Source of the DNA: a bacterium
Lineage (GTDB): Bacteria; Patescibacteriota; Minisyncoccia; Phycocordibacterales; Zambryskibacteraceae
DNA length: 64,000 bases
Reading direction: 5' to 3'
NCBI GenBank assembly: GCA_030649135.1
Contig: JAUSGI010000006.1
Coordinates: 1-64,000 of the forward strand
Every line of letters begins with the position of its first letter. Positions within the stretch are counted from its first letter, which is position 1. The notes under the pieces are model-generated. The model did not search any database and was not told where the DNA came from. It worked only from the letters and a program-made list of their open reading frames with translations. The position numbers and the translations under genes were made by a program. This document shows, piece after piece, positions 33,410-47,325 of the stretch.

Positions 33410-35546
33410 CTAATTTTCTGTTTACCCCAATAACAACATTACCGCTAGGTTCTGACAAGTCCAGCCCTTGTTTTTCGGCCACAACGCCTTGCCGGTCATA
33501 TTCTCGAACATGATGCCCTACCACATCCAAGTCAACTTTTGTTTTAGAGAGAGTATTTTCCCGCTCCGGCTCTGCCAAAATCAGCGAATCTTGGGAACAA
33601 GAGATGATGTTTGAAGAATCAGGGTTTTCTGTCGATTTCGTTTCTCGTTTTTCTCGTCCCGTATATATATGGGGAACAAGAGAACAAGAATAGAGATAGG
33701 GGTCGTTGCGCTTTCCAGCACCTGTACGTTGCACCGACCCTTTGGTAACTAAATCCCGTAACGCCTTACGCTTTAGTCCCGTGCGACCCTCGACCTCGTT
33801 TTCGATGGCCTTTTCGATAGATGACTCCTCTTGCTCGGATAGAAAAGTGAGAATCTCATCCGCAACACGCTGTATATCGTCATCTTCCTTCGTACCACCG
33901 AGAGACGTTGTCTGGGTTGTCTCATCGAATAGCAACACCGTCGACTCCGTATCTGTGCCGTAGCGTTGTTGGGTCTCGATGGTCCGTTTACCCTCGGTTC
34001 TTTTGAGAATAATCGCTGTATCGACAGAGCCAAATATTGCTGTCGAGCCAAGAACAGAATCGCCACCGCTCCTGTCACCTTTGCCCGCATGATGCACAAC
34101 CATCACATGCGCTCCATGCTCTCTGGCAAGCGTAAGCAATGGCGAGAGTGCTGCAGTCACTTCTGCGTAGTCGTTGCCATTTCTAATCGAGACGAAGCGA
34201 AATAATGTATCGATAATAACGAGCACAGGCTTGCGGGCGACAATTTCTTTCTCAAGCCATCTAGATGCTTCTTGAGGAACTGAACCAATATATGTGTACA
34301 AATCTTCACTACCTGTCGCTCCGAGCAACTTGAAGTGATTTTTAACCTCGCTTCGTTTTTCCTCAAGCGAAACATACAGGACAGCACCTTTTGTCGTTTG
34401 GCGACCAAGAAATATCTCGCCCTGCGCGACATAGAGTGCTAACTGCCTCGCGAGCGTTGACTTACCGACCTTTGGTTTCGCGACTATCATGGAAAATCCG
34501 CTTGTAGGAAGTAACCCATCAACGATCCAGCTTGTCTCTTCATCCGGCTCGTTCAGAAGTGTGCCAAGAGAGGTGAAGCCGAATTTTTCACGAACGACTT
34601 CTGCCGATTCTACAGCTGTTTTTACCGCAGAAGGACCCCGAAGTATATATAGGTCATTGAAATCAGTTGTAGTCCCTCCGTTGATTGTTTCACCATCCTC
34701 AAATTTCGGAATCGCTAATCGTGCGCCAATATTTGCCGCCTCTCTCGCTTTCAAGAGTCCGTTAGTATCAGCATCGGCACAGATAATTATTTCTGCATTT
34801 GGAAATTTCTTCCGCATTTCCTCAGCCGTTGCTCTTAGATTCGTGGAAGAAAATGAGATTGCTGTGGCATACCCTGTGGCCTCAAACACACTCGCGCCGG
34901 TGGCAAATCCTTCCACGATGCACAGTCGTTCCATTGGCACTCCTATGAGAAAGAAGCACTTTGCTGTTATAGCTTCACTCAGGAATTGTTTACCTCCATC
35001 AGCATCAATGAACTGTATAGACGAGAGAAAGCCGTTACCAGTGTAGAGCGGTAGTACCAGCTTGTTTCTCTTAAAACGAACTCCGTGTGGTAAAACTTGT
35101 TTCTTTTTGAGATATGGGAAGTCGACGGGTGCTTCGCTTGCAGCCTCCCAAATTTCTTGAGCATTTAGGGCGCCTGTGTGTTTTTCACTTCTTTGCGAAT
35201 CCTGTTTCTCCATAGCTGGCCGATGATAAATACCGTCTCCAAGATGTCGTGCAAACATAGTGAAATTTCCCTTTGCGTCGCACTTCTTGCAGTGGTATAA
35301 ACCTGTTTCGGAGGCAATGTATAGATGCGCCTCGTTGCCTTTGCTATCTCTGTCACAATCACCGAATATACAGTGGGTGATAAGTTCACCGTTCACTTCG
35401 CGAAATGGTATGTTTTTATTAGAGAGATACTCACGAACGGCGAGATATTCGTTTATTGCGTTGTTTTTCATGTACAGTCGGAGTTTCTTATTGAAATCCT
35501 GGTGTCCGACTGTACGTTCTTTCACCAGAACTTCAATAAAAAACAA
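33399..35546 (-). CDS. Bifunctional primase (zinc-finger + Toprim) / P-loop helicase (AAA_25/RepA-like), replication protein of the element
   Basis: CHC2-like HCIFGDCD...HCKKCDAKG zinc finger, Toprim CIVEGFATGASV...ICADADTNG, Walker A VAKPKVGKST and Walker B VLVIIDTL; 11-nt overlap with the recombinase gene. Confidence 0.75.
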   Translation of the reverse strand: MFFIEVLVKERTVGHQDFNKKLRLYMKNNAINEYLAVREYLSNKNIPFREVNGELITHCIFGDCDRDSKGNEAHLYIASETGLYHCKKCDAKGNFTMFARHLGDGIYHRPAMEKQDSQRSEKHTGALNAQEIWEAASEAPVDFPYLKKKQVLPHGVRFKRNKLVLPLYTGNGFLSSIQFIDADGGKQFLSEAITAKCFFLIGVPMERLCIVEGFATGASVFEATGYATAISFSSTNLRATAEEMRKKFPNAEIIICADADTNGLLKAREAANIGARLAIPKFEDGETINGGTTTDFNDLYILRGPSAVKTAVESAEVVREKFGFTSLGTLLNEPDEETSWIVDGLLPTSGFSMIVAKPKVGKSTLARQLALYVAQGEIFLGRQTTKGAVLYVSLEEKRSEVKNHFKLLGATGSEDLYTYIGSVPQEASRWLEKEIVARKPVLVIIDTLFRFVSIRNGNDYAEVTAALSPLLTLAREHGAHVMVVHHAGKGDRSGGDSVLGSTAIFGSVDTAIILKRTEGKRTIETQQRYGTDTESTVLLFDETTQTTSLGGTKEDDDIQRVADEILTFLSEQEESSIEKAIENEVEGRTGLKRKALRDLVTKGSVQRTGAGKRNDPYLYSCSLVPHIYTGREKRETKSTENPDSSNIISCSQDSLILAEPERENTLSKTKVDLDVVGHHVREYDRQGVVAEKQGLDLSEPSGNVVIGVNRKLDDK

Positions 35547-36027
35547 AGAATTAATTTATAATTGGTTTGACTATTGAACGTCTTTCCTCTGCCCGGGCAA
35601 GAGCAACACTAGCCAGTCGAGCAAGTCTCAACAGAGATACACCAAAAACCTGAGTTTCATCTTCACTCATTTGTTTTCCGTAATCTTTATAGAGAATAAG
35701 CCGAAGCTTCTCTATGGCTTGAGGTGAAAGAGTTACCATGCCGCGATCTCGTGGCTGTAGTGTGCGGTAACTTAAAAGGCTGCCACCGCATCCCACAACG
35801 TGAGATGAAATGGCAGCCCCTCAACTTTGCCTGCCCAGCGGGGTCCCACCCCCGATTTACTATCCTCGGGCTTATCCGGGGATACCTTGATACACCCCAC
35901 ATTGGCATGTATCAAGAGGTACGCTAACTTACTCAGTATAACAAAGTTTTGCTGATAAGTATGTGTAGATATCCACAGTAATAATGCTAGACAGAAAAAA
36001 GTTTGATACAATGTAATTGCTCTCGTG

Positions 36028-36583
36028 CATTAAGGGTGCATGAGCAAGGTCAGAAATGATAGCAACCGGCACTCAATTCAGATATGGCCTAAGTACCTAC
36101 GATAAACAAGTTTGAAGGAACCATCGTTTTGACTGGTACTTAGGTAGGGAGGAGGGTAAAACCAACTCCAAACCTTAGTCCCTTAAACTTTGGTTTGGGT
36201 GTCAGGCTGAAAAGTCTTACTCCTGAACTGAGTGCCGGTCATAGTGATGGTTCCTTTTGCTTATCCGTGGTCTAAAGGCAATAGGCTATGAAAAAGCTGG
36301 CTAGGCACATTTAACCCCACTGCCATTAACAACGGCACAATTTGGGGGCTGACAAATCTTGGGGCGTGGAACTTCTTCGCTCTACAGCATGTTGTCAGAC
36401 AGCAGCAGGCAACGATCAACGTACTGACCGCAAGGTTGGCACAGTTGGAAAATCGTCTCCCTGCTCCCGCACAGGCATCGCGGCCTCTATTGCCTAATAC
36501 GAATAATCGCCGTCTACCGTAAGGTAAACAGCGATTACTCTGGATTAAAGCAGGTGTCCCGAAAGGGACGCTTGCTTTTTATT
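36028..36583 (+). ncRNA. Candidate large structured non-coding RNA (unclassified) within a ~1.1 kb ORF-free region (35560-36640)
   Basis: No credible ORF; nested long-range helices (36066-36081 with 36224-36239; 36088-36097 with 36135-36144; inner 36099-36103 with 36123-36127), many local hairpins, putative promoter TAGACA-N18-TGTAAT around 35987-36020, strong intrinsic terminator at the 3' end. Confidence 0.3.
36549..36583 (+). terminator. Rho-independent terminator with GAAA-capped stem (possibly bidirectional)
   Basis: agcaggtgtccc-gaaa-gggacgcttgct followed by tttttatt. Confidence 0.6.
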
Positions 36584-36638
36584 ATACCCCCGCCAGTAAC
36601 GGCGAGAGCAACCAATTTACCCTACCTGTGTATAACTA

Positions 36639-37157
36639 TCAAGCTGTGCCTGATTCTGGCTCATATTCATACTGTTTGCGTACCTCCCGCATACTAACGG
36701 GGCGATAGTTCTCCGCATCTTCTATCATGCTGATTCTCGGCATTATTGCCATGTTTTCTGGTATGGACGTGTCAAACTCTTCACGACGCTTCCTTGCCAG
36801 ATACCACATAGCTACCTTTGGGTCCGTTTCTAGCCGGTCCACAATGGTCTTTCTAGCTCTTAGTACAGGCATTTGTCTAAGAGCCTCAATTATATGGGAA
36901 AACTCCGGATGCTTCTCTACGAAATACTTATACTGATCTATTGAAATACCTGCTGAAAAGCACGCTTCTTTGATAGTTGCATCGTATTTGAAGGCGGTGA
37001 TTAAGCGGAGGACTTTTCCCTGATCACGATACCAGGCGTTGGCTGAGTTTTCGACCCGCAAAATGCCAAAAGCTCTGTCTTTAATGGTGTACGCGTACTG
37101 ATCTAACTTAGTTACTTCTAATACTTGATGGGTAGTGATTTGGTTTTGGTCTGTCAT
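36639..37157 (-). CDS. Hypothetical protein with a putative HTH
   Basis: ...TIKEACFSAGISIDQYKYFVEKHPEF... HTH-like segment; no firm family. Confidence 0.4.
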   Translation of the reverse strand: MTDQNQITTHQVLEVTKLDQYAYTIKDRAFGILRVENSANAWYRDQGKVLRLITAFKYDATIKEACFSAGISIDQYKYFVEKHPEFSHIIEALRQMPVLRARKTIVDRLETDPKVAMWYLARKRREEFDTSIPENMAIMPRISMIEDAENYRPVSMREVRKQYEYEPESGTA

Positions 37158-37197
37158 TCAAGCATTATATCTCAACTTCTATAGCCAGAGAACTATC

Positions 37198-38019
37198 TTA
37201 ATACCAACAGAACTCAGCTTTTTCTCCTATCTGATCTTCAACGTACTTCGTAGCAGTCGTGATATCTCCAATCTCATCAATCAGTCCAGACTTCAAAGCG
37301 TCCTCGCCTATATAGGTTAATCCATTAGCCAGACTCTCAACAGCCTTTAATTCAAGGCCTCTGTTCGTTGCCACATCCTTGACAAAAACATTGTGAGCCT
37401 TGCGGACGTCAGATAATAGAATCTCCTTTTCTTCCTGTGTTAATGGTTTGTTTGGATCACCAGTATCCTTATATTTAGCAGAAGAGAGTTCTACGAATGT
37501 GTAACCGTCCTTTGCGTTTTTATTGGATTCATTTAGATAAGAAGCTGTTACCCCAATACCTCCCACATCAGAGATTTTAGAAGCGTATATTTTATCCGCA
37601 CCGGTAGCCGCCCAGTAGGCAGCCGAAGCTCCAATACCTCGTATGACAGCCACGCTTGGTTTATCAAGACTTTTTAATGCTCGCGCTATTTCCTCTCCAG
37701 CTACTCCATCACCTCCGGGTGAGTCAATCGACAACATCACTGCTTTGATATCTGGATCATTTTGAGCACGTAGTATCCCATACACGATATCTTCTGACGA
37801 GGAAACATCCACTTCCTGTCCCTCTGGCTGGCTTGGTAAGTATGTACTCAAGTACCCTTTGATTGAGAATGCCAAGACATTACAGTCATCCTGTTGTAAT
37901 GAGTCAGTGATAGTAGTCTCTTCAGAAAAGTATGATCCTGCAAGAAAAGCCAGCACTCCAATAACTACAGCTAGTATGAGTACTTTCTTCTTGCTGATCT
38001 TTTTCTCCTCGTTCATATT
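37198..38019 (-). CDS. Signal peptide peptidase SppA-like serine protease (S49 family), membrane-anchored
   Basis: ...SIDSPGGDGVAGEEI... and ...GIGASAAYWAA... S49 motifs; TM anchor; start taken at MNEEKK (the ORF could extend to 38094). Confidence 0.65.
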   Translation of the reverse strand, partial: NMNEEKKISKKKVLILAVVIGVLAFLAGSYFSEETTITDSLQQDDCNVLAFSIKGYLSTYLPSQPEGQEVDVSSSEDIVYGILRAQNDPDIKAVMLSIDSPGGDGVAGEEIARALKSLDKPSVAVIRGIGASAAYWAATGADKIYASKISDVGGIGVTASYLNESNKNAKDGYTFVELSSAKYKDTGDPNKPLTQEEKEILLSDVRKAHNVFVKDVATNRGLELKAVESLANGLTYIGEDALKSGLIDEIGDITTATKYVEDQIGEKAEFCWY

Positions 38020-38032
38020 CAAGATTATAGCT

Positions 38033-38473
38033 CTATTTCTTAATATATTCCCTATTCCTTTCCTTATGTCTTTCAATGATTCTCTGTGGATCAAAGGCTT
38101 TGCTTAATGGCATTGATGTTTCGAATTGAAAACTATTTTTAATGGCAGTCATAAGCTCCGGCCATTCCGGTATATATTCGCTATCAATCTCCTCATCAAT
38201 AGCTTCAGATATTTTACGTATTATTTCATCTTCATATATAGAGGTGTAATCATCTGTATCCATAAGATCACTAAGAGCGTCATCGTGGTACCTCTTAAGA
38301 AGAGCTAAATTAAGTTCCTCTGCTTTTTTTAGATTTTCCATATCAGCATCCAATGCTAGTCTCAGAATCACATTGCTCTTAAAGCTTTGGTATTTAGATA
38401 ATCTGTCAATCGTTCTAAGGAGTCTAAACCAGAGGATGAATAATACGGCAAGTAGTATATAGATTAATGTCAT
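38033..38473 (-). CDS. Hypothetical membrane-anchored acidic protein
   Basis: N-terminal TM helix, acidic C-terminal region. Confidence 0.4.
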   Translation of the reverse strand: MTLIYILLAVLFILWFRLLRTIDRLSKYQSFKSNVILRLALDADMENLKKAEELNLALLKRYHDDALSDLMDTDDYTSIYEDEIIRKISEAIDEEIDSEYIPEWPELMTAIKNSFQFETSMPLSKAFDPQRIIERHKERNREYIKK

Positions 38474-38475
38474 AA

Positions 38476-39417
38476 TTAATAAAAGATTGGCTTTTCACAA
38501 TACCAAGAATAGTTAGTCGGGTTTTTGTTAACACACTCTTGATATTGTTGCTGTTGGTATAGTTTGTATTCTAGATCGCTTTGTGGAGTATTAGTCCCGC
38601 ATTTAACCTCCCTGATTCTTCTTTGTTGTTGCGGAGATAGAGTTCGTAGTTCTGGCGGAGTAGGTTCTAATAAACAATCTGATTGTTGTTTTTGGGCTGT
38701 TATTGACTGTTGTTGCTGTTCACTTTTTGCCTTGTTATATTTCTCAACCTGAGCATCAATAAGTATTCGAAAACTCATATTACTCATGTAGCCATCGAGA
38801 AATTTAGAGTCTTTGCACGTTAGTGAGTTCACTTCTGGAACTTCCCCGCACATTTTAAACAGAGCACCCAGTTGTTGTGCCGTGGGAGGGGTAGCATACG
38901 GTTGTTGTATTTCCGCTTTGCTGTTCTTGCGAACCCACTGATTGCTTTCCTTTCTGTAGTATCTTTCTTCCCTCTGACGAGTAATGGAAATGGATGTCCA
39001 TCCCTTTGAATCAGCTTCGATGAAGAATCTTCGCTCCAGACTTTCCCAGGTCTCGACAGCAGGTGTCGCGATGTTTGAAGTAGTTATATTATTTATCGGT
39101 AGTGTCTCTTTTTCTATATTGTTTGCAGTAGACTGTTTCTCTTTTAACTTTTCTACCTCTCTTTTCAGCTTTTCAATTTCAACACTTTGATTGTCTACTA
39201 CGGGTACTGGTTGTACTTTTTCTGTAGTTACTGTTGGTTTTTCTACTTTATTCGGAACTACTACCGAAGAGGTTGCACTCTCGCTCGGCACTGGTTGTTC
39301 GATTTTTACTTCTTGCTTCTTATTAAATATTCTCCATGTAAATGGATTCCACCATGCCGCAAAAGCCACCTGAGGAATTATTATCGCAAGTAGGATTATT
39401 GGAATTATTTTTTTCAT
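38476..39417 (-). CDS. Hypothetical secreted protein with coiled coil and Gln/Cys-rich C-terminus
   Basis: Signal peptide MKKIIPIILLAIIIPQVAFA; heptad region; eight Cys in the C-terminal 100 aa. Confidence 0.5.
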   Translation of the reverse strand: MKKIIPIILLAIIIPQVAFAAWWNPFTWRIFNKKQEVKIEQPVPSESATSSVVVPNKVEKPTVTTEKVQPVPVVDNQSVEIEKLKREVEKLKEKQSTANNIEKETLPINNITTSNIATPAVETWESLERRFFIEADSKGWTSISITRQREERYYRKESNQWVRKNSKAEIQQPYATPPTAQQLGALFKMCGEVPEVNSLTCKDSKFLDGYMSNMSFRILIDAQVEKYNKAKSEQQQQSITAQKQQSDCLLEPTPPELRTLSPQQQRRIREVKCGTNTPQSDLEYKLYQQQQYQECVNKNPTNYSWYCEKPIFY

Positions 39418-39632
39418 AATTTTGGGGGAATTTCGTCGACTTTCTTTTTGTTAAGTTTGTAGTTCAAGTGAGAATAAAGAACTATGCCTAGTGGCCAGAT
39501 TAATGCTCCTGCCAAGGCCGCAATGATTTTGTTCATATTGTGTCTCTGAGCAACTCTATAACAATAAACACCAGACCAAATAACCATCACCACACCTACT
39601 AAGTACAGAAGACCACCTAGTACAGATCCCAT
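39414..39632 (-). CDS. Small two-TM membrane protein
   Basis: Hydrophobic 72-aa ORF, translationally coupled (4-nt overlap) to the downstream gene. Confidence 0.4.
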   Translation of the reverse strand: MGSVLGGLLYLVGVVMVIWSGVYCYRVAQRHNMNKIIAALAGALIWPLGIVLYSHLNYKLNKKKVDEIPPKL

Positions 39633-39657
39633 TTTATTTTAGTGATTATTTATAACA

Positions 39658-39791
39658 CAAAGCCCGCTACCAGGAAGGCGCCTTTCGACCACCTCTACCA
39701 GAGTTTCCCCTGGTAACGCGACGAACGCCCTGATAACGGGTTCTCTATGTTCGTCGCGCTTTCTTGCCATGCCGGTGGTTGCCCGGTTTAG
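39658..39791. repeat. Structured repeat element, copy 1 (~134 nt, GC-rich), upstream of a minus-strand operon
   Basis: Shares aaagcccgc..gtttccc..gcgaNNaaNcg.ccct.a.acgggtt..NttNNtcg.c..ttgccatgccggtg..cccggtttagg with copy 2; 9-bp stem gcgacgaac/gttcgtcgc. Confidence 0.5.
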
Positions 39792-39907
39792 GTTTGTCGC
39801 ACATCCACAGTTGCATAATTCTATGGATGTTCTGAAAAGTTGAGCTTCGTTAGAGTCCTGTTTCTTATCTGATACTCTAGCTAAGGTAATTGCTTTCATA
39901 AAGTATT

Positions 39908-40678
39908 TTAGTAGTAAATATCTTTAAGCAATTTAGCGTTGTAACCAGAATTTTCAAAGATATATTTAGCATAACTCTTTTGACCTTCCGTAACAGCTTT
40001 GTCAGCTTCTTCTTTGCTTAAAGAAGGATCCAGCCAATACCAACTAGGATAATCTCCTAACTGCTTATTAGAAGATACATCGTAAATCTTGTCTGATTTT
40101 TTCGTGTAATACTCGCTTTTTACGTTGTTATAATTACTGTAATCGTAACTATAATCAGTAGTATAAAGGCAAGTGTTCATTGAAGGACTGTAGAAAATAA
40201 AATTTAACTCTTCTTTTTCTGTTACAAAAGTGGTGTTTTTATATTTTTTAGAAAGTTCATCTTTGATGTTACTGGTTAATTTCGCACATTCAGTGTTTTT
40301 ACTAAACAAAGTATCTTTATCAATTTTAGAGTTCTTAACCAAGTCCGCTACATCCTTTTTTAGTTGAGCAAGTATATCCTTCGTAGCTGGGTCTGCTTTA
40401 ATTTCATCCGACATTGTAAGTATCAATGTGTTCTGTATTTTTGAGTCTTCCTTGTCGGCTTCTTCAGCAACCTTTTTTATTCTTTCATCAACTATCTTGT
40501 ATTTATCTTCTGGCAAAAGACTTTTATAAACATTTAAGTACTTATAAAATTCAACATCTTCGTTTGTACCAGAGTCTGCAACTTTGATAGAAGACATATT
40601 GGTTTTTCCTTTAACAAAAGGTATTCCGAGCCAAACAATTATTACCACAAGAACAACGATAATTATATTTTTAATCAT
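39908..40678 (-). CDS. Hypothetical secreted/membrane-anchored Lys/Asp-rich protein
   Basis: N-terminal signal anchor; low-complexity lysine-rich sequence. Confidence 0.5.
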   Translation of the reverse strand: MIKNIIIVVLVVIIVWLGIPFVKGKTNMSSIKVADSGTNEDVEFYKYLNVYKSLLPEDKYKIVDERIKKVAEEADKEDSKIQNTLILTMSDEIKADPATKDILAQLKKDVADLVKNSKIDKDTLFSKNTECAKLTSNIKDELSKKYKNTTFVTEKEELNFIFYSPSMNTCLYTTDYSYDYSNYNNVKSEYYTKKSDKIYDVSSNKQLGDYPSWYWLDPSLSKEEADKAVTEGQKSYAKYIFENSGYNAKLLKDIYY

Positions 40679-40687
40679 ATTATTTTG

Positions 40688-40990
40688 TTATTTATTAAAT
40701 TCAAACCGACCGAAGAACCAAGAGAGTAAGCTTCTACTCCTCATTTTAAAGAAATAGCTTATGGAAATATAACCTGTCACTGCTGATATAAATCCCTCAA
40801 AAATACTTTCGGTAAATAGATAAATGACTATCCCAATGATGATCAGGGATAGGATGACTATGAATAGGTCAGCTAGTTTGGCCAGAATATAACGTACGAA
40901 TAGTTGACCACGACCCCTCTCCTTTATTGCTCTTAATTCTTCAAGGGCATCTCTCGCTATACCGTTAGCTTTAGATATATGTTCTTCCAT
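40688..40990 (-). CDS. Small membrane protein (start taken at MEEHISK; upstream in-frame extension lies in the repeat element)
   Basis: Two TM helices; the N-terminal 33 codons of the longest ORF are encoded by repeat copy 2. Confidence 0.4.
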   Translation of the reverse strand: MEEHISKANGIARDALEELRAIKERGRGQLFVRYILAKLADLFIVILSLIIIGIVIYLFTESIFEGFISAVTGYISISYFFKMRSRSLLSWFFGRFEFNK

Positions 40991-41029
40991 ATTGTTGCTT
41001 GATCGTCTTGTAATCTTTTGCGGGCACAA

Positions 41030-41151
41030 AAAGCCCGCCACAGGTAGAGGCCGAGGCCCCTCATACCGGTTTCCCGATATGGCGATCAAGCGACCCTATG
41101 ACGGGGTTTTTACCTTGATCGACTTTTTGCCATGCCGGTGCCCGGTTTAGG
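41030..41151. repeat. Structured repeat element, copy 2 (~122 nt)
   Basis: Homologous to copy 1 with compensatory changes in the main stem (gcgatcaag/cttgatcg); extra hairpin gcgggc-acaaaaa-gcccgc at 41021-41040. Confidence 0.5.
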
Positions 41152-41276
41152 CCTATTTTCTTCACACTACCATTTTACCAGTTTTACAGAGTTAAGCTAA
41201 TGGCCTCAAATGTTCTCCTTCGAGCAGGGCAACTAAAGGTGGCAAAAGCGGTAGTGCACGGTATACTTCTTCTAAA

Positions 41277-42497
41277 ATGTTATATACCAAGCCCATTACT
41301 GAAATTACTTATGTCGATGTCATTGACTTCTGCAAACAGTCGTTAAAAGAGAATATAAACCTGGACTACAAGCTGGATGTCGATACTGGCATAGCCAAGA
41401 CCATAGCGGCAATGGCTAATACTTGGGGTGGGCTGATTGTGGTCGGTGTTGAAGACGAGGATAGTAAGCCCAAGCTACCTGTCGAGGGTATTCCATATCG
41501 CGAGCACATTGAGGAGCAGATAAACAACATTATTCTAGGTAATATCACTCCGCCAACCTTTCCAGAAGTTAAGGTGTGCCTGTCTGAAAATAAAGAGAAA
41601 ATGTTTGTGGTAATCAGGATTCCACAAAGCAATCTCACGCCTCATGCTATTAGGGGCAATACCAGAGTCTACATCAGAACCAATACTAGCAATGAACCTG
41701 AAGAAGAAATAACTATAGAAAAGTTAGGGTGGTTAGTTGATAAGCGAAAAAAGTCACTCGACCTGAAAGAACAACTACATCAGGAAGCTGATAGACGGTT
41801 TGAAAAACTATGCAGGATACAAGGAATAAAAAATTTTAGACATAACGATGTTAGTCTTATGACGTCTCCTCTATATCCATTCGAAATTCTAACTAAAAAG
41901 GAGCAACTTATCAGGGAGATACCTGAAAGGATGCGGACTGAAGCCTGGGGTAGATACTTCCCAAAGACTTTACATAGAACAAGCTACGAAGCTATTAATG
42001 GCGGTAGTTATGCCTTTATCTCGAATGGTCAGTCAGGATACTTTCTATATGAGGAATTTAATCATTACGGTCTTTTTTATCATAGGGAAGATTGGTGTAA
42101 AAGTGATAAAGATGAAGAAACTGGAGAAATCAAGCACACAGGTTTTTTGCATAGCTATTTATCCGAGATAGACCTAATGATTGAATCCGCAAGTAAATTC
42201 TATTCTGCAGTAGGATACTGGGGTCTTGTCGAAATAAAAGTTATTGCCAGAGAGTTAGAAGAAGTCAATTTTAGGGATTTACCAGCTCCAAAAGGTTTCT
42301 ATAAATTCGATAAACTTGAGAAGAGACCCATTGATAATAATCTTGAATTTACCAAAGAAGTTTCGGTCAGAGAACTGGTAGAAAAAAGGGTGGCACTAGT
42401 AACATATTTGATGCTCGATTTGAGCTGGGCACTTGGCTTCACTCATATCGATGAAGAAGGTATAGGAAGACTTCTAGAGGAGCAGGGTCGTCTCTAG
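41277..42497 (+). CDS. AlbA_2 (Schlafen-like, 'divergent AAA / putative DNA-binding') domain protein
   Basis: N-terminal ...IAKTIAAMANTWGGLIVVGVEDED... AlbA_2 signature; long uncharacterised C-terminal domain. Confidence 0.6.
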   Translation: MLYTKPITEITYVDVIDFCKQSLKENINLDYKLDVDTGIAKTIAAMANTWGGLIVVGVEDEDSKPKLPVEGIPYREHIEEQINNIILGNITPPTFPEVKVCLSENKEKMFVVIRIPQSNLTPHAIRGNTRVYIRTNTSNEPEEEITIEKLGWLVDKRKKSLDLKEQLHQEADRRFEKLCRIQGIKNFRHNDVSLMTSPLYPFEILTKKEQLIREIPERMRTEAWGRYFPKTLHRTSYEAINGGSYAFISNGQSGYFLYEEFNHYGLFYHREDWCKSDKDEETGEIKHTGFLHSYLSEIDLMIESASKFYSAVGYWGLVEIKVIARELEEVNFRDLPAPKGFYKFDKLEKRPIDNNLEFTKEVSVRELVEKRVALVTYLMLDLSWALGFTHIDEEGIGRLLEEQGRL

Positions 42498-42689
42498 AAT
42501 AGTCATTTTGGCTCTTACGTGCACAGGACCATCTGAAGCATTGTGTCCGGTACCTCTTTCTCCTAGTAGTTCTGTACTATCATGGCAGTTCTTCCTAATG
42601 CTCGTTCTGGCTCCCTGTGATCGTTTCTGGTGCGAGTTTATCTTCCGTTGAGAAACCCGACAAAGAATCAGGACCAGAGACAGATATGG

Positions 42690-45203
42690 TCACTCTGAAA
42701 GTGAAACATCTAAGGATGACCTGAAATTTTCTATATTTTTATCTCTGATACTTTGGAAATATCCGTTGAAATCTGTCGGGGTAAGGAAGTTGAATTTGTA
42801 TGATATGCCTTTCTTATTCTTTCGTAAATACGCATTTATCCTTTCAAAATGAGCGAGCGCATATTCGTTTTTCTTTTTGTTCTCCACGGACGGCTCGCTA
42901 ATCTCGTCGTCGTCTTTAATCTCAACAATCAAAATCAACTTGCCGGTCTTGATAAAAAAGTCGGGATTGAATTTTCCACGCTTTGGATGTTCGCCTTTCT
43001 TCCAAAAATAATCAATCTCGTAGAAACTCATCGGCGTTGATTTAATCCATGCGTCAATGTGTTGCGTGTTTTCGGATTTTACTAGCTCTTTAACGAATCT
43101 GCGCTCATTGTCATGATCCGAGACAACAGCATTGAGCGGTGTTTTGAAATCATAATGATTGGCGACTTTTGCGCACTTAAACCCGCTCCCTTCCTCCACG
43201 GCTTCTTCGTAAAATTCTTTATACTCATCCGGCATATTTTCTTTCGTTTTGCTTGTATAGAAAATCGTTTTGCCATTTTTCAGGTCGGATGCGCTTGCGC
43301 TCTCCTGCGGTCGCTCGGTCGTTAATATCGGATAGTAATTTGTCGGCTCAAAATCATAGCGAACCACTTGCGCTGCTTTTCTTTGAAGCGTTCCGAGCGA
43401 CTGCAAAAACTTTTGCCGCATATTTTCGGTAATAACCTTGTTGTCTGTTTCTTTAAGCGATTTTTTTACAATTTCCTCCAGTTTTTCAACGGGAAATTGC
43501 TTTATGTAAAATTTGCGGTCTTCGCCGTCCACCAAATCCTCAAACCGCTGGAACATCACCTCGGCAACTTCGTGCGTGGTATAGGTCTTATGCTTGATTT
43601 TCGTTTTCCATTGTGTCCGCACGCCGGTATCTGCTTCCTCAAACTCAACTGTCATATCCTCCACAGGAAGTTCCGTTGAAAGATCAACATAACCCTTTTT
43701 GAATAACTGATATGGCTTCTCCATTTTGTAAGTTTCGGTGCGCGGCTTCGGATCGTACTCAATGTTCAGCAGTTCAAAATTAAATTCGGACGAGGTAACT
43801 GGAAATGTTGGTATTCGTTTTTCAAATTCCAAAACTTCATGGACAAGGTGTCGTATGTCATCCGCCCATCTATCATGATTGAAAACAGTTACTTCCGGTT
43901 GCGCGCCTTTCCAGCCGTCCGGCACGCGTAAGCCGCGCCCAAGCACTTGAGCGATAAGCAACTTACTTTCAAACGCTCTTTTTTCGTGGGGGACAATTTG
44001 AAAAACGCGTTTTACATCCCAACCCTCGTTGAGCATGGAAACCGACAAAATCCACTCGACCTTACTGTTTGCGTTGTTTACGCTTGCGAGGCGCGGCAAA
44101 TCTGGTGCGTCGCTATGAATAACAAGCACCTGTTCGTCAATCTGCTCTCGGCTTTTGCCGGTCTCTTCTTTCAAAAACGCTTTGAATTTTTCTGCTACAT
44201 CTTTACACCCACTAATATCTTTCGTAACGATAATTGTAAGCGGGCGCAATTTATGCGCTTTCAATTTGCGCCTTATTTCTTCGTGGTGATTAAGTACCAA
44301 CTGCCACTTTTCTGTTTCCGGTTGTCTCGTCTGCGGCATTTCGGCAACATACTGCACTTTCTTAACAAATTTTTCTTCCATTGCTTGCCGCAACGAGTAA
44401 CGATAAATCACATCGGAAAAATACTCGTTGCCGAGATAGCAAGTGCCAGAAACGCCAATGACATAACGAAAGCCGTAATCTGGATCGGTCAAAAATTCCT
44501 TCCACTTTTTCGCTTTGCTCGCCACTTCGTTTGCGACATGGTGCGTCTCGTCGTTCAAAATGAGTGTCCTGTCTCCTTTGCCCTGCAGGCTGTCGCGGAT
44601 TGACGAGCGCACATGAGCGAGAATTGCGTGATAGTTTTCTATACAAATACTGCCAGATACAATGCTTTCGCTCGCGTTTATGACGTGCGGAGCGTTCACT
44701 GCTGCGTTTGCGGGTAAAAGGTCGCGCAAGTCGGCGTTTCCTGCCAGTAGCTCAAATTTTTCCAGCAATCCGGTCTCTATCGTCGTGGACGGACACAACA
44801 CTAAAACTCTATCAACCGCGCCCTCGGCAAGCATGATCGCCGCAATGCCATACATCACATAGCTTTTGCCCGTGCCGGTCGCCAAATCAAGCGAGGCGGC
44901 GAGTTGGTCCGGCAATTGCAAATACCGTTCCAGATTTCCGATTGAGCCGTATTTATCGCGCAAAACTTCGTTATGCTCAAAATTCTTTCCAGCCAAATCG
45001 CGCAAATCCCGATACTCGCCGCCGAGTAAATACCGCGTAGCGGCGCGGATTGCGTCTTTTTGATACTCACGAATGCCGCAAAGCTCATCAAGAAACGCCT
45101 CGTACTTATTTTCGTCCCATTTGCGACGATCAACCGAAGTGCTGACATCAAGCACTAGGTCTTCATTATGAAATCGTTTTGTTCCGTTTGTTCTTCTTGG
45201 CAT
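42690..45203 (-). CDS. res: Type III restriction endonuclease, Res subunit
   Basis: SF2 helicase motifs (TGTGKSY Walker A, LNDETHHV DEAH box), C-terminal nuclease region; immediately downstream of mod. Confidence 0.85.
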   Translation of the reverse strand: MPRRTNGTKRFHNEDLVLDVSTSVDRRKWDENKYEAFLDELCGIREYQKDAIRAATRYLLGGEYRDLRDLAGKNFEHNEVLRDKYGSIGNLERYLQLPDQLAASLDLATGTGKSYVMYGIAAIMLAEGAVDRVLVLCPSTTIETGLLEKFELLAGNADLRDLLPANAAVNAPHVINASESIVSGSICIENYHAILAHVRSSIRDSLQGKGDRTLILNDETHHVANEVASKAKKWKEFLTDPDYGFRYVIGVSGTCYLGNEYFSDVIYRYSLRQAMEEKFVKKVQYVAEMPQTRQPETEKWQLVLNHHEEIRRKLKAHKLRPLTIIVTKDISGCKDVAEKFKAFLKEETGKSREQIDEQVLVIHSDAPDLPRLASVNNANSKVEWILSVSMLNEGWDVKRVFQIVPHEKRAFESKLLIAQVLGRGLRVPDGWKGAQPEVTVFNHDRWADDIRHLVHEVLEFEKRIPTFPVTSSEFNFELLNIEYDPKPRTETYKMEKPYQLFKKGYVDLSTELPVEDMTVEFEEADTGVRTQWKTKIKHKTYTTHEVAEVMFQRFEDLVDGEDRKFYIKQFPVEKLEEIVKKSLKETDNKVITENMRQKFLQSLGTLQRKAAQVVRYDFEPTNYYPILTTERPQESASASDLKNGKTIFYTSKTKENMPDEYKEFYEEAVEEGSGFKCAKVANHYDFKTPLNAVVSDHDNERRFVKELVKSENTQHIDAWIKSTPMSFYEIDYFWKKGEHPKRGKFNPDFFIKTGKLILIVEIKDDDEISEPSVENKKKNEYALAHFERINAYLRKNKKGISYKFNFLTPTDFNGYFQSIRDKNIENFRSSLDVSLSE

Positions 45204-45205
45204 AA

Positions 45206-47077
45206 TTATTTTTTAGCTTTGGCACGAAGCACTTTTGGTGTAATGACAATGCGTGATTCGTTGCCGTAAATATCCAAAAATACGAGCATGACATCACCTT
45301 TAATTTCTTTGGTGGGTAGCTCTATTTTCCACTTGTTATCTTTTATCGCGCTCGCGTAAAACGCTTTATCCAAATCAAATACCTTTCCGTTGTAATCGTA
45401 ATCTACCATCACCATTGAAAGCGCGTCGTGCTTGCTAATTTTATCCTCTCCGCGCAGTCGCGCCTTGCTCTCAAACTTCTTTATTTTAACAGACACGGCT
45501 TGTTTCTTTGCGGCAAGCTCAAGCTCAACTACCGGCGGCTGGATAAAATCAAAACCCACCGCCTCAACGGTTTCGTTGATAGCCATTTCGTCGTTTGGCT
45601 GAACGAGCGCGGAAAATTTACGTCGGTGCAGTTCGTTGATAAAAGAATACGGAATACGAAGCGCGTAATATCGCACACCGTCCATTTCGAGATAATCCTC
45701 TTGGAAAAGGAACGCGCCGCGCGGAGCAATAATAAAGCAACGATCTCCAACGGCTTTTCCAATGCTTGCGTGCAAGTCTGCTATTGTCTGCTGGCTAATC
45801 TGTCCTTCCTTAAAATGATTGAAAACATGAACGCTTGAACCTTGTCGCTTGCCATCCATTTGGAAGCCATGAATTTTGTGTGGCTCGTCTTTGCACTCAA
45901 AAAGCTGGAGCGCAAAAAATCGCCAATCTTCCCACGGCAAATTTCTCAAATTCTCAAAATCATACAAACCAGCGTTATAAAGTGTGAACGGCTTGGCGGC
46001 AAGCGACTCACCAGTATTGCTGATATTTTTGCGTAAAGTTAGCATTCGTTTTTGAATGGTATAAACTGCGAGCTTACTTACATCAATTGCAATCCAGCGT
46101 CGCTCTAACTTTTCGGCTGTCGCGGAAGTCGTTCCCGAACCCGCAAAAACATCCATAACAATATCACCTTTATTTGAGGAAGCTTCAATAATGCGCTTAA
46201 TCAATGCCTCTGGTTTCTGTGTCGGAAAATCAACTCGCTCTTTTGAATCCGCCTCTGTACCTAAAGGATAAATATCTTCCCAAACATCCCTACATACAGA
46301 ATTGTGATACCACTTTTGTTTGTCTTTATCGAAAAATTCAGGATATTTTTCACTAAAGTTATATTTCTTTTGCTGATACGATTTGTAGTATTGTGTGTTA
46401 AAAAGAAAATTACCGTTTTTTGCGTAGTAATAAATATTATCGTGTTTTCTGGCAAAGAAATTTTTACTTACACCACCAGTCCTATAACTCCAAATAATCT
46501 CATTTATAAAATTTTGTTCTCCAAAAATTTCATCCATTAAAACTTTTATGTAATGGCCTTTCCTATAATCAAGATGCACATAAATTCCACCATCATTTGC
46601 GAGTAACTCTTTTAAAAGAATAAGCCTCTTTCGCATAAATTCTAAAAATGCGCTGCCAGCAATTTTATCTTGATATGCTTTTTGATCTTGGCTTCCTTTG
46701 AAATCTCGCCGTGTTGAAAATGGTGGATCAATGTAAATAAGCCGAACGCCCGGCGTGCCGTCGGCGTTCACCAGCTTTCCATCTGCTTTCATTTGCAAAA
46801 GCGTCTTTATAGCCTGCAAATTGTCGCCAAAAATAAGTTTGTTGTGCCAATCAACCCCGTTCTGTCCAAAAGTGCTGACTTCTTGAAACGGCACAGCCAT
46901 TGTGTCGGCGAGAATTTGCTCCTCGGTTTCTTTGCCGTTGTAGACAAGTTCGTACTCGCGGCGTTCGGGCGGAAAAAACTCTCGCGCCCACTCTGCCGGA
47001 AGTTCCTCGCCGGTTTCGGTCAGCTTGAGTCCTCGTTTTAGCAACTCGTATATCTTTTCTTGACGACGTTTGTCCAT
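45206..47077 (-). CDS. mod: Type III restriction-modification methyltransferase, Mod subunit (N6-adenine, beta class)
   Basis: Motif IV LIYIDPPFS precedes motif I VMDVFAGSGTTSA. Confidence 0.85.
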   Translation of the reverse strand: MDKRRQEKIYELLKRGLKLTETGEELPAEWAREFFPPERREYELVYNGKETEEQILADTMAVPFQEVSTFGQNGVDWHNKLIFGDNLQAIKTLLQMKADGKLVNADGTPGVRLIYIDPPFSTRRDFKGSQDQKAYQDKIAGSAFLEFMRKRLILLKELLANDGGIYVHLDYRKGHYIKVLMDEIFGEQNFINEIIWSYRTGGVSKNFFARKHDNIYYYAKNGNFLFNTQYYKSYQQKKYNFSEKYPEFFDKDKQKWYHNSVCRDVWEDIYPLGTEADSKERVDFPTQKPEALIKRIIEASSNKGDIVMDVFAGSGTTSATAEKLERRWIAIDVSKLAVYTIQKRMLTLRKNISNTGESLAAKPFTLYNAGLYDFENLRNLPWEDWRFFALQLFECKDEPHKIHGFQMDGKRQGSSVHVFNHFKEGQISQQTIADLHASIGKAVGDRCFIIAPRGAFLFQEDYLEMDGVRYYALRIPYSFINELHRRKFSALVQPNDEMAINETVEAVGFDFIQPPVVELELAAKKQAVSVKIKKFESKARLRGEDKISKHDALSMVMVDYDYNGKVFDLDKAFYASAIKDNKWKIELPTKEIKGDVMLVFLDIYGNESRIVITPKVLRAKAKK

Positions 47078-47325
47078 TCAATTCATCATACCCCAAAACA
47101 TCTCTATTCGTCTTGCATTGCCAATATATGTATTATCTATCCTCATACTGTCATTGTGGCTTGCTGTGGTCCTCTGGGGCGCGAGTTTTGTGCTATTTTG
47201 TAGTTACGCCTTGTTGGCCCGAAATCTCACTATATTGCCCTAAAGCACACGTTCTAACTTCGTTCAACATGCGGAGCCAGTCAGAATTTGGCAAGGTTTT
47301 GGGAAAAGAAAAACTTTGAACTACA

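What the first reader, a model, noticed from the sequence alone, without database searches (positions are those of the whole stretch)
39658..41151. Two diverged copies of a ~130 nt GC-rich structured element with compensatory stem changes, each at the head of a secreted-protein operon
Copy 1 (39658-39791) and copy 2 (41030-41151) share the blocks aaagcccgc..., gtttccc, a main hairpin and an invariant tail ttgccatgccggtg(N0-4)cccggtttagg. The main stem differs at three paired positions (gcgacgaac/gttcgtcgc versus gcgatcaag/cttgatcg) while staying complementary. An inner ccc.../...ggg hairpin and a GGGAAAC-loop hairpin are also preserved. Covariation like this argues for a functional RNA or protein-binding structure rather than a decaying duplication. 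On the minus strand both copies sit at the 5' end of operons encoding small membrane and secreted proteins. The apparent N-terminal extensions of ORFs 39639-39899 and 40688-41089 are translations of this element. It could be a cis-regulatory leader or riboswitch-like element, a small RNA, or a miniature mobile repeat.
Basis: seen in the sequence. Interest (0 to 1): 0.6.

Follow-up and report, generated by a model that had tools for sequence, protein, structure and literature searches.

The report
Two LOOT RNA leaders (Rfam RF03000)
The two GC-rich elements are members of LOOT, a catalogued structured RNA of ultra-small (CPR) bacteria with unknown function, and here they sit as 5' leaders in front of membrane and secreted-protein genes and end in a terminator-like helix that the database model lacks.

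Summary
Both copies, read on the minus strand, match Rfam RF03000 (LOOT RNA) full length and above its curated threshold: 64.7 and 61.3 bits against 46.4. The RNA class is therefore already known, but no functional study turned up in the paper library.

I collected 88 non-redundant LOOT RNAs from CPR genomes and metagenomes. They show three things that the 121-position Rfam model does not contain.
- **A 3' tail.** It is 11-17 nt long, covaries with the apical loop of the long hairpin P2, and is followed by a U-tract.
- **A 5' leader and promoter.** A conserved leader, ACAAYUNAAUA, lies behind an extended -10 promoter.
- **A downstream gene.** In 74 of 82 loci a same-strand gene starts a median of about 27-28 nt after the U-tract. 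76% of these genes have a hydrophobic N-terminus, against 26% of background genes.

The conserved internal loop of P1 is a variant of the 11-nt GAAA tetraloop receptor. The loop of P3 is always GAAA.

My best reading is a cis-acting 5' leader whose apex:tail helix acts as a conditional terminator. That step is inferred, not shown. A mobile repeat and a coding region are rejected.

The parts
41172..41200 (-). Putative promoter of copy 2: TTAGCT (41200-41195), 17-nt spacer, extended -10 TGgTAAAAT (41180-41172)
   Evidence: Read from the sequence. In the family alignment a tGnTAnnnT box sits at the same distance from the RNA start. The simple sigma-70 scan did not flag it.
41154..41165 (-). Predicted 5' leader of copy 2 (GUGAAGAAAAUA), a diverged counterpart of the family's ACAAYUNAAUA. 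The transcription start at about 41165 is inferred.
   Evidence: 66 of 86 LOOT RNAs have ACAAY within 35 nt upstream of CCUAAAC (mostly 11-21 nt), against a background of 10%. The last T of the -10 box lies 6 nt before the A.
41046..41153 (-). LOOT RNA copy 2, extent of the Rfam RF03000 match. P1 receptor hairpin 41152-41129. P2 stem 41121-41114 with 41090-41083. P2 apex 41113-41091. P3 41081-41062 with GAAA loop 41073-41070. P4 41061-41046.
   Evidence: 64.7 bits, model positions 1-121. (the minimum-energy fold without the tail reproduces the four hairpins, -44.3 kcal/mol, z -3.1).
41027..41045 (-). 3' tail of copy 2, outside the Rfam model. CCUGUGGCGGG (41044-41034) pairs 11/11 with apex CCCGUCAUAGG (41105-41095). 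The U-tract UUUUU lies at 41032-41028.
40688..40993 (-). First gene after copy 2: a 101-aa membrane protein (MEEHISK...). The start codon lies about 35 nt after the U-tract.
   Evidence: Homologue in L099 in the same position. No Pfam match.
39908..40678 (-). Second gene of the copy 2 unit: a 256-aa protein with an N-terminal hydrophobic segment and no Pfam match.
   Evidence: Absent from the related element in L099.
39818..39823 (-). Possible -10 box of copy 1 (TAGAAT), followed 4 nt later by CAACUG. No good -35 box and no TG extension.
   Evidence: This is a weak call. Copy 1 may also be reached by read-through from the copy 2 unit.
39675..39794 (-). LOOT RNA copy 1, extent of the Rfam RF03000 match. 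P1 39792-39767. P2 stem 39759-39749 with 39726-39716. P2 apex 39748-39727. P3 39715-39696 with GAAA loop 39707-39704. P4 39695-39675 with a GAAA loop.
   Evidence: 61.3 bits. (-48.0 kcal/mol, z -4.2).
39654..39674 (-). 3' tail of copy 1. CCUGGUAGCGGG (39674-39663) pairs 12/12 with apex CCCGUUAUCAGG (39740-39729). The U-tract UUUGUGUU lies at 39661-39654.
39414..39632 (-). First gene after copy 1: a 72-aa membrane protein. The start codon lies about 22 nt after the U-tract.
38476..39417 (-). Next gene: a 313-aa secreted protein with the N-terminal motif PQVAFAAWWNPFTW. Homologues follow LOOT RNAs in L093, L188 and L099.

Best explanation
Both elements are LOOT RNAs (Rfam RF03000) transcribed from the minus strand. 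Each forms the structured 5' untranslated leader of a transcription unit that starts with a small membrane-protein gene.

**Anatomy of the full unit**
- An extended -10 promoter and a short conserved 5' sequence.
- P1, a hairpin whose internal loop CCUAAA/CAUGG is a variant of the 11-nt GAAA-tetraloop receptor.
- An A-rich linker.
- P2, a long hairpin with a small apical hairpin.
- P3, whose loop is always GAAA and which probably docks into P1.
- P4.
- A 3' tail complementary to the whole P2 apex, then a U-tract, then the start codon 10-50 nt further on.

**Proposed mechanism**
The apex:tail helix plus the U-tract acts as an intrinsic-terminator-like attenuator. It competes with the local apical hairpin of P2. 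The tertiary fold, or an unknown ligand or factor that binds it, would decide between termination and read-through into the downstream gene.

**What is shown and what is inferred**
- Shown: family membership, the strand, the new helix with its covariation, the U-tract, and the position in front of genes.
- Inferred: the transcription start, the tetraloop-receptor docking, that the helix terminates transcription, and that termination is conditional.

My confidence by layer is about 0.97 for LOOT membership, about 0.75 for a cis leader co-transcribed with the gene, and about 0.45 for a conditional terminator or switch.
For: **Membership.** Both copies score 64.7 and 61.3 bits against a gathering score of 46.4, full length.

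**Apex:tail helix**
- RNAalifold predicts the helix on a plain MAFFT alignment of 23 LOOT RNAs. It has 13 pairs, 10 of them with changes on both sides, and 94% of cells are paired.
  - For the whole predicted structure (31 pairs) the covariation score is 0.609, against 0.226 in shuffles (0 of 500 shuffles reach it) and about 0.15 when the 3' partners are slid by one column.
- An alignment-free test on 88 non-redundant LOOT RNAs gives a mean duplex energy of -22.45 kcal/mol between each apex and its own tail. Apex i against tail j gives -14.1. None of 20000 permutations reaches the observed mean.
- The mini-LOOT in L087 lacks P3 and P4 but keeps P1, P2 and the apex:tail pairing.

**U-tract.** 82 of 85 sequences have at least 5 U in the 8 nt after the helix.

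**Competing structure**
- The local apex hairpin is more stable than shuffles (mean z -2.25). The tail on its own is not (z -0.25).
- The nucleotide that bulges in the long-range helix covaries with its partner in the local hairpin: CUGAAC/GUUCAG against CUAAAC/GUUUAG.
- Without the tail both window copies fold into the Rfam shape. With the tail the nested minimum-energy fold switches to the tail helix.

**Cis position**
- 74 of 82 loci have a same-strand ORF downstream and 4 have an opposite-strand ORF.
- The start codon lies a median of 27-28 nt after the element (quartiles 17-39), which leaves no room for a separate promoter.
- There is no -10 peak before the start codon that would suggest leaderless transcripts.
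- The upstream gene is divergent in 42 loci, on the same strand in 21, and absent in 17.
- An extended -10 box sits at a fixed distance upstream.

**Gene class.** 76% of downstream genes have a hydrophobic N-terminus, against 26% of background genes (odds ratio 8.8, p 6e-16).

**Tetraloop receptor.** The canonical motif is CCUAAG/UAUGG (bioRxiv 10.1101/2024.03.11.584472). LOOT has CCUAAA/CAUGG. The P3 loop is GAAA in 23 of 23 sequences.
Against: - There is no expression, termination or ligand data of any kind.
- The supposed terminator would enclose about 75 nt (the P2 3' strand, P3 and P4) instead of a short loop, which is atypical for intrinsic terminators.
- The helix could simply be a permanent pseudoknot of the final fold. 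An 8-nt A-rich loop crossing it is sterically plausible. The local hairpin would then be only a folding intermediate.
- The long-range helix (-22 kcal/mol) is far more stable than the local hairpin (-5 kcal/mol). A switch would therefore need kinetic or ligand control.
- Rfam types the family as 'Gene; sRNA'.
- In L151 one LOOT RNA is followed by the promoter of a second LOOT RNA rather than by a gene.
- The downstream genes share no single function. 54 of 74 are singletons by BLASTP, and some are DNA methylase or nuclease-like genes. This does not point to a specific metabolite.
- My search pattern required a fixed P1 sequence, so the sample does not cover the full diversity of the family.
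- The supplement of the paper that first described LOOT is not held in the library. I cannot rule out that the tail or the gene association was noted there.
Confidence: 0.6

Rival explanations
1. LOOT is a free-standing, trans-acting small RNA. It has its own promoter, and the apex:tail helix plus U-tract is its constitutive terminator. The neighbouring gene is incidental or is expressed by leaky read-through.
For: - Rfam lists the family as 'Gene; sRNA'.
- There is a promoter-like box at a fixed distance upstream.
- There is a strong helix followed by a U-tract at the 3' end.
- L151 has a LOOT RNA with its own promoter that is followed by another LOOT promoter and not by a gene.
- The tertiary motifs are typical of RNAs that act as folded molecules.
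Against: - 74 of 82 loci have a same-strand ORF. A randomly oriented element would give about 50%. The start lies a median of 27-28 nt after the U-tract.
- The spacer is too short for another promoter, and there is no -10 signal of the leaderless type.
- The downstream genes are strongly enriched for one class, envelope and secreted proteins. An unlinked small-RNA gene would not predict that.
Confidence: 0.22
2. LOOT is a constitutive structural 5' UTR module. It forms a compact pseudoknotted fold that protects the mRNA 5' end from exonucleases or helps translation. No switching and no ligand are involved.
For: - It always lies at the 5' end of the transcription unit.
- P2 and the apex:tail helix can coexist as an H-type pseudoknot, with an A-rich loop of about 8 nt.
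- The downstream genes are too diverse for one metabolite signal.
- It occurs in accessory or mobile regions, where a portable expression module would be useful.
Against: - A simple 5' hairpin is enough for stabilisation, and this RNA is far more elaborate.
- The U-tract directly after the helix is nearly universal, in 82 of 85 sequences, and stabilisation does not explain it.
- The local apex hairpin is conserved independently and is mutually exclusive with the helix.
Confidence: 0.13
3. The elements are a miniature mobile repeat, or a DNA-level recombination site that moves gene cassettes.
For: - The window holds two copies 1.36 kb apart inside an integrated element.
- The related element in L099 lacks the segment that carries copy 1 and its neighbours.
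- A recombinase-like N-terminal fragment lies just upstream of copy 1. This is read from the sequence and is unverified.
Against: - There are no terminal inverted repeats and no target duplications.
- Similarity between the copies stops at the RNA boundaries.
- The copies are only distantly related to each other.
- The many G-U pairs make the structure strand-specific.
- GAAA tetraloop and receptor motifs are RNA tertiary motifs.
- The promoter lies at a fixed distance upstream.
Confidence: 0.03
4. The region codes for protein, as the N-terminal parts of ORFs 39639-39899 and 40688-41089.
For: Open reading frames span both copies in the window.
Against: - Across 89 LOOT RNAs the best frame is open in only 22.
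- Element lengths are spread evenly over the three classes modulo 3.
- Conservation follows base pairing and not codons.
- The real start of the downstream gene is confirmed by its homologue in L099.
Confidence: 0.01

Closest known systems
LOOT RNA motif (Rfam RF03000, from the Weinberg/Breaker ZWD collection and the 2017 '224 candidate structured RNAs' study)
   Same: The four-hairpin architecture, the conserved nucleotides CCUAA..GCAUGG, the AAAA linker and the GAAA loop are the same. The relatives come from CPR/Patescibacteria. Both window copies score above the curated threshold over the full model.
   Different: Nothing conflicts with membership. The full unit seen here and in 88 relatives is longer than the 121-position model. 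It adds a 5' leader, ACAAYUNAAUA, and a 3' tail that pairs with the P2 apex and is followed by a U-tract. Rfam types the family as a small RNA, whereas the genomic position argues for a cis leader.
Transcription-terminating riboswitches and attenuators, for example GEMM-I (c-di-GMP-I), which in my recollection also uses a tetraloop-receptor contact and precedes diverse genes
   Same: - It lies in the 5' UTR.
- It has a compact fold with tertiary contacts.
- It has two mutually exclusive conserved structures, one of which ends in a U-tract.
- It precedes varied genes, including envelope and mobile-element genes.
   Different: - No ligand is known.
- The 5' strand of the terminator is the apical loop of an internal hairpin about 75 nt upstream, so the terminator is long-range or a pseudoknot.
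- There is no sequence or covariance-model match to any riboswitch family at E up to 1.
11-nt GAAA tetraloop receptor (CCUAAG/UAUGG), as in the P4-P6 domain of the Tetrahymena group I intron
   Same: It has the same two-strand internal loop with the CC/GG pairs, the U, the AA platform positions and the AU. A partner hairpin with an invariant GAAA loop is present.
   Different: The closing G-U wobble is replaced by A-C (CCUAAA/CAUGG). Docking is inferred and not shown. The same variant occurs in many phage contigs that look like group I introns, but Rfam did not confirm those at gathering thresholds.
Processive antitermination RNAs at the head of surface-structure operons (the EAR element, and put RNA of phage HK022; both recalled from memory)
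   Same: A structured RNA near the start of long operons for cell-surface functions or in mobile elements.
   Different: There is no sequence or structural match. LOOT carries a terminator-like element of its own. This comparison is speculative.

Membership tests
LOOT RNA (Rfam RF03000) | Covariance-model score at or above the curated gathering score (46.4 bits) | tested here: met
   64.7 bits (41153..41046) and 61.3 bits (39794..39675), E 7e-10 and 4.5e-9.
LOOT RNA (Rfam RF03000) | Full architecture: P1 with the CCUAA/GCAUGG internal loop, the A-rich linker, the long P2, P3 with a GAAA loop, and P4 | tested here: met
   Model positions 1-121 are matched in both copies. The minimum-energy folds of the matched stretches reproduce the four hairpins.
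LOOT RNA (Rfam RF03000) | Occurrence in CPR/Patescibacteria lineages (OD1, OP11 and TM7 in my recollection of the family description) | tested here: inconclusive
   The organism of the window was not identified (one search found no record). Nearly all named genomes that hold full LOOT relatives are CPR MAGs; the exception, L063, is binned as a Pacearchaeota archaeon. The closest genome relatives of copy 2 are Zambryskibacteria and Paceibacterota. The closest of copy 1 is Saccharibacteria.
Riboswitch or transcription attenuator | Located in the 5' UTR of the regulated gene, same strand, no intervening promoter | tested here: met
   74 of 82 loci. Median 27-28 nt from the U-tract to the start codon.
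Riboswitch or transcription attenuator | Mutually exclusive conserved structures, one of them a terminator (a stem directly followed by a U-tract) | tested here: inconclusive
   Both the local apex hairpin (z -2.25) and the apex:tail helix (-22.5 against -14.1 kcal/mol) are conserved and overlap, and 82 of 85 have a U-tract. The helix could instead be a static pseudoknot, and its enclosed 'loop' of about 75 nt is atypical.
Riboswitch or transcription attenuator | Specific binding of a ligand or factor that changes the structure | not testable with these tools
   Needs in-line probing, or a binding or termination assay.
Trans-acting small RNA gene | An independent transcription unit whose position is not tied to the neighbouring gene | tested here: not met
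   90% of loci have a co-oriented gene within a few tens of nt, and that gene class is enriched.
11-nt GAAA tetraloop receptor | Internal loop 5'-CCUAAG-3' / 5'-UAUGG-3' with a GAAA tetraloop partner in the same RNA | tested here: inconclusive
   The sequence is the variant CCUAAA/CAUGG, with A-C in place of G-U. The GAAA loop of P3 is invariant in 23 of 23. Docking cannot be tested here.
Miniature mobile repeat (MITE-like) | Terminal inverted repeats, target-site duplication, and near-identical copies | tested here: not met
   No terminal inverted repeats. The two copies share only a 32-nt BLAST match. Similarity ends at the RNA boundaries.

The most novel reading that the evidence does not exclude
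LOOT is an unrecognised riboswitch-like attenuator class that is widespread in CPR bacteria. It would switch on sets of envelope, secreted and accessory (mobile-element or defence) genes in response to one shared signal. Its expression platform would be unusual: a long-range or pseudoknot terminator formed between the tip of an internal hairpin and a 3' tail. Neither the tail nor the link to downstream genes is in the current Rfam entry, which types the family as a small RNA.
Probability: 0.3. Interest if true: 0.7.

Novelty: new member of a known kind. Interest (0 to 1): 0.4.

Why it matters
As found, this is ordinary: two further members of a catalogued RNA family. What matters is that LOOT is an orphan family with no assigned function, in a group of bacteria that can barely be cultured and whose gene regulation is almost unknown.

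The comparative results give concrete, testable handles.
- A covarying 3' helix with a U-tract.
- A defined promoter and probable start site.
- A probable tetraloop-receptor contact.
- A strong bias towards genes for membrane and secreted proteins.

If LOOT proves to be a conditional attenuator, it would be a family-wide control point for the cell-surface repertoire of these episymbiotic bacteria. It would also give an extended model, with leader and tail, for genome annotation.

Tried and rejected
- **Viral-contig scan.** A scan with the P1 pattern gave 61 loci, and only one (L052, identical to L098) is a LOOT RNA. The rest carry the same receptor motif in what look like phage group I introns followed by homing-endonuclease ORFs. 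Rfam at gathering thresholds found nothing in five of them, so the intron label remains my inference.
- **More copies in the window.** Neither Rfam at E up to 1 nor nhmmer found a third LOOT-like element.
- **Pairing partner for the 5' leader.** I tested the leader against the tail, the apex and the downstream spacer and found no cognate-specific signal (p 0.26-0.61).
- **P2 3' strand against the translation start region.** The family-wide signal is weak (p 0.02, with the control strand at p 0.03). Only a subset, which includes copy 2, repeats the P2 5' strand before the start codon.
- **Recombinase remnant.** The 34-codon ORF upstream of copy 1 has no BLASTP similarity to the element's own recombinase and no Pfam match.
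- **Second att site.** I found no second copy of the tRNA-Asn 3' end that would mark the far end of the integrated element.
- **Source genome.** No exact record exists for the UvrB protein of the window.
- **Literature.**
  - No functional study of LOOT is in the library.
  - The supplement of the 2017 paper that first described the motif is not held.
- **Promoter scan.** The simple sigma-70 and terminator scan does not flag the LOOT promoters or the long-range helix.
- **Leaderless promoter for the downstream genes.** No positional -10 signal precedes the start codons.
Full report
**1. Observation**

The region 39000-42000 holds two GC-rich stretches of about 130 nt in AT-rich surroundings. 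GC is 0.33-0.39 at 38-41 kb, against about 0.45 elsewhere.

- **Chance.** The shared P1 pattern occurs twice in the window, with 0.00 expected by chance.
- **Similarity between the copies.** An alignment of the two copies with their flanks shows that similarity starts at CCUAAACC and ends at GCGGGCUUU(U)UGU.
- **Main stem.** Its three differences are all double, compensatory changes.
- **Strand.** The minus-strand RNA folds far better than shuffled sequence (z -4.5 and -2.8). The plus strand does so less (z -1.6 and -2.2).

**2. Identity**

Rfam cmscan at curated thresholds reports both copies as full-length LOOT RNA (RF03000) on the minus strand.
- Copy 2: 41153..41046, 64.7 bits.
- Copy 1: 39794..39675, 61.3 bits.
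- The gathering score is 46.4 bits.

A permissive search (E up to 1) and an nhmmer profile find no third copy in the window.

The paper library says little about LOOT.
- It is one of the metagenome-based ZWD families added in Rfam 14 (PMC7779021).
- It has about 43 base pairs in six helices and an unusual number of 'cross-covariations' (10.1101/2020.02.04.933952).
- Rfam 15 added two covarying pairs (PMC11701678).
- The main text of the 2017 discovery paper does not discuss it, and its supplement is not held.
- I found no functional study.

**3. Relatives**

| Collection | Pattern | Result |
|---|---|---|
| Viral contigs | CCTAAACC-N(4-24)-GGCATGGCAA | 61 loci, only one a LOOT RNA (L052) |
| Species-representative genomes | the same pattern extended by RAA (CCTAAACC-N(4-24)-GGCATGGCAARAA) | 37 loci, about 23 true LOOT RNAs |

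- The true LOOT RNAs from genomes all lie in Patescibacteria/CPR MAGs, plus one contig binned as a Pacearchaeota archaeon.
- The other viral hits look like phage group I introns that share the P1 motif. Rfam did not confirm them.
- A profile HMM recovered 121 full-length LOOT RNAs. Of these 96 are unique, 89 remain after collapsing at 92% identity, and 88 could be parsed.
- **Caveat:** every sequence was required to carry this P1 sequence, so the sample is a slice of the family.

**4. A 3' helix that the Rfam model lacks**

Minimum-energy folds of both window copies pair the 12-19 nt just beyond the end of the model with the apical loop of P2.
- Copy 1: CCCGUUAUCAGG with CCUGGUAGCGGG, 12 of 12 paired.
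- Copy 2: CCCGUCAUAGG with CCUGUGGCGGG, 11 of 11 paired.
- One U-A pair in copy 1 is a C-G pair in copy 2.

*Covariation on an alignment.* RNAalifold predicts this helix by itself on a plain MAFFT alignment of 23 LOOT RNAs that was not fitted to any structure.
- The helix has 13 pairs. Ten of them have changes on both sides, and 94% of cells are paired.
- For the whole predicted structure (31 pairs) the covariation score is 0.609. Column shuffles give 0.226, with 0 of 500 reaching the observed value. Sliding the 3' partners by one column gives about 0.15.

*Alignment-free test on 88 sequences.* I compared the duplex energy of each apex with its own tail and with the tails of the other sequences.
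- Own tail: mean -22.45 +/- 2.3 kcal/mol.
- Other tails: mean -14.1 +/- 4.05 kcal/mol.
- None of 20000 permutations reaches the observed mean. The 24-sequence pilot gave the same result.

*Further features.*
- The helix is followed by a U-tract. 82 of 85 sequences have at least 5 U in the next 8 nt.
- A natural mini-LOOT in L087 lacks P3 and P4 but keeps P1, P2, the apex:tail pairing and the U-tract.

**5. Two competing structures**

- The P2 apex also forms the small local hairpin of the Rfam model. That hairpin is more stable than shuffles (mean -5.3 kcal/mol, z -2.25, with 65% of sequences below z -2). The tail alone is not (z -0.25).
- The local hairpin takes different sequences in different lineages: CCC/GGG, CUGAAC/GUUCAG, GCUC/GAGC and GGUC/GACC.
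- The nucleotide that bulges out of the long-range helix covaries with its partner in the local hairpin.
- The two structures use the same nucleotides.
- Folding only the Rfam stretch gives the four-hairpin shape (-48.0 and -44.3 kcal/mol). Adding the tail moves the nested optimum to the tail helix (-60.3 and -54.0 kcal/mol).
- P2 and the tail helix could also coexist as an H-type pseudoknot, with an A-rich loop of about 8 nt. I cannot tell a switch from a static pseudoknot with these tools.

**6. 5' end**

- 66 of 86 sequences have ACAAY within 35 nt upstream of CCUAAAC, mostly 11-21 nt. The background rate is 10% per 35-nt window.
- Aligned on this motif, the consensus is ACAAYUNAAUA.
- An extended -10 box (tGnTAnnnT) ends 6 nt before the A, which puts the transcription start at that A.
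- Copy 2 has TTAGCT, a 17-nt spacer, TGgTAAAAT, 6 nt, and then GUGAAGAAAAUA.
- Copy 1 has only TAGAAT and CAACUG, and may also be reached by read-through from the copy 2 unit.
- The leader shows no covarying pairing partner.

**7. Tertiary motif**

- The conserved internal loop of P1, CCUAAA(C)/(G)CAUGG, differs from the canonical 11-nt GAAA tetraloop receptor, CCUAAG/UAUGG, only in having A-C in place of the closing G-U.
- The P3 loop is GAAA in all 23 aligned sequences. The P4 loop varies (GAAA, GCAA, UUCG).
- A P1-P3 docking contact is therefore likely, but it is inferred.

**8. Genomic position**

- **Downstream gene.** Of 82 evaluable non-redundant loci, 74 have a same-strand ORF downstream, 4 have an opposite-strand ORF and 4 have none. 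After trimming over-extended starts, the start codon lies a median of 28.5 nt after the element (quartiles 17-39).
- **No second promoter.** No -10 peak precedes the start codons.
- **Upstream gene.** It is divergent in 42 loci, on the same strand in 21, and absent in 17.
- **Gene class.** 56 of 74 downstream proteins have a hydrophobic N-terminal segment, against 114 of 436 other genes in the same loci (odds ratio 8.8, p 6e-16). They are very diverse, with 54 singletons by BLASTP.
- **Pfam examples of downstream proteins.** A peptidoglycan-binding protein, a secreted trypsin-like protease, a T5orf172 protein and a DNA methylase. The window's own proteins have no match.
- **Coding test.** LOOT itself is not coding. 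The best frame is open in 22 of 89 sequences, and lengths are spread evenly modulo 3.

**9. The window locus**

The two LOOT RNAs lie in what looks like an integrated element next to tRNA-Asn (31643-31715). Its genes are:
- a large serine recombinase (31703-33409);
- a Toprim/AAA_25 primase-helicase (33399-35546);
- an S49 peptidase (37198-38094);
- an AlbA_2/Schlafen protein (41277-42497);
- a type III restriction-modification pair (42690-47077).

Metagenome contig L099 carries a related element. Comparison of the two shows:
- its LOOT RNA is 95% identical to copy 2;
- it shares the membrane protein, the WWNPF protein, the peptidase and the recombinase with the window;
- it lacks window 40685-39391, which holds the 256-aa gene, copy 1 and the 72-aa gene;
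- it carries other cargo in place of the restriction-modification system.

The two window copies belong to different LOOT sub-lineages and are not a recent duplication. There are no terminal inverted repeats.

**10. Interpretation**

- **Certain.** These are LOOT RNAs on the minus strand.
- **Well supported.** They are co-transcribed 5' leaders, and the family unit is longer than the Rfam model at both ends.
- **Most likely mechanism, inferred.** The apex:tail helix with its U-tract acts as an attenuator that competes with the local P2 tip. The tetraloop-receptor-stabilised fold, or something that binds it, would decide the outcome.
- **Rivals.** A small RNA with read-through, a static stabilising pseudoknot, a mobile repeat (rejected) and a coding region (rejected).

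**11. Verdict**

This is a known family with new members. Interest is moderate because the family is an orphan and the comparative results make its function testable.

Noticed in passing
window 31643-47300: A probable integrated mobile element lies next to tRNA-Asn. It carries a large serine recombinase whose 3' end overlaps the tRNA, a Toprim/AAA_25 primase-helicase, an S49 peptidase, an AlbA_2/Schlafen protein and a type III restriction-modification pair. A related element with different cargo is in L099. I found no second att repeat.
   Followed up: partly
window 39798-39899 (-): A 34-codon ORF directly upstream of copy 1 starts MKAITLARVSDKKQDSNEAQ. This resembles the N-terminus of small serine recombinases (the ARVS..Q motif with the catalytic serine). 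It may be a truncated gene remnant. It has no BLASTP match to the element's own recombinase and no Pfam match.
   Followed up: partly
window 40998-41005 and 41114-41121 (-): The 5' strand of P2 in copy 2 (CGAUCAAG) is repeated 5 nt upstream of the start codon of the downstream gene, so the P2 3' strand could pair there instead. The same arrangement, with different sequences, occurs in L099, L106, L207, L083 and L138. Family-wide the signal is weak.
   Followed up: partly
window 41020-41038 (-): In copy 2 the 3' half of the tail (GCGGGC) can also pair with GCCCGC just downstream, with the U-tract in the loop. This is kept in L099. Family-wide, a tail paired with its own downstream sequence shows a small but significant advantage (-7.3 against -6.5 kcal/mol).
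   Followed up: partly
L087 2006-2141 (-) and 2264-2350 (+); L068 and L072: L087 holds a full LOOT RNA and, divergent from it, a mini-LOOT that lacks P3 and P4. L068 and L072 have only the P1 receptor hairpin, followed directly by a signal-peptide gene.
   Followed up: partly
L151 3673-3827 and 3920-4058 (+): Two LOOT RNAs lie in tandem, each with its own promoter-like box and ACAAUUUAAUA leader, ahead of a single secreted-protein gene.
   Followed up: partly
L001-L061 (viral contigs): Dozens of phage contigs carry ...GGGAAACCUAAACC-loop-GGCAUGGCAAUCCC... followed by HNH or GIY-YIG-like ORFs. They are probably group I introns that use the same receptor variant as LOOT P1. Rfam at gathering thresholds found nothing in five of them.
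   Followed up: partly
L063 / L163 (contig DAOSDI010000007.1): A full LOOT RNA sits on a 43.7-kb contig binned as a Pacearchaeota (DPANN) archaeon. This is either a mis-binned CPR contig or a LOOT RNA outside bacteria.
   Followed up: no
window 38476-39417 (-); L093, L188, L099: A family of secreted proteins of unknown function has the N-terminal motif PQ(V/I)xFA(A/S)WWNPF(T/S)W right after the signal peptide. It recurs downstream of LOOT RNAs in different CPR lineages.
   Followed up: no
window 28756-30072 (+): A single 438-aa ORF combines peptide deformylase with methionyl-tRNA formyltransferase domains, which looks like a def-fmt fusion.
   Followed up: no
LOOT family, literature: Rivas and colleagues report 28 'cross-covariations' in the LOOT alignment. 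I could not test whether these relate to the unmodelled tail or to alternative registers of the apex.
   Followed up: no
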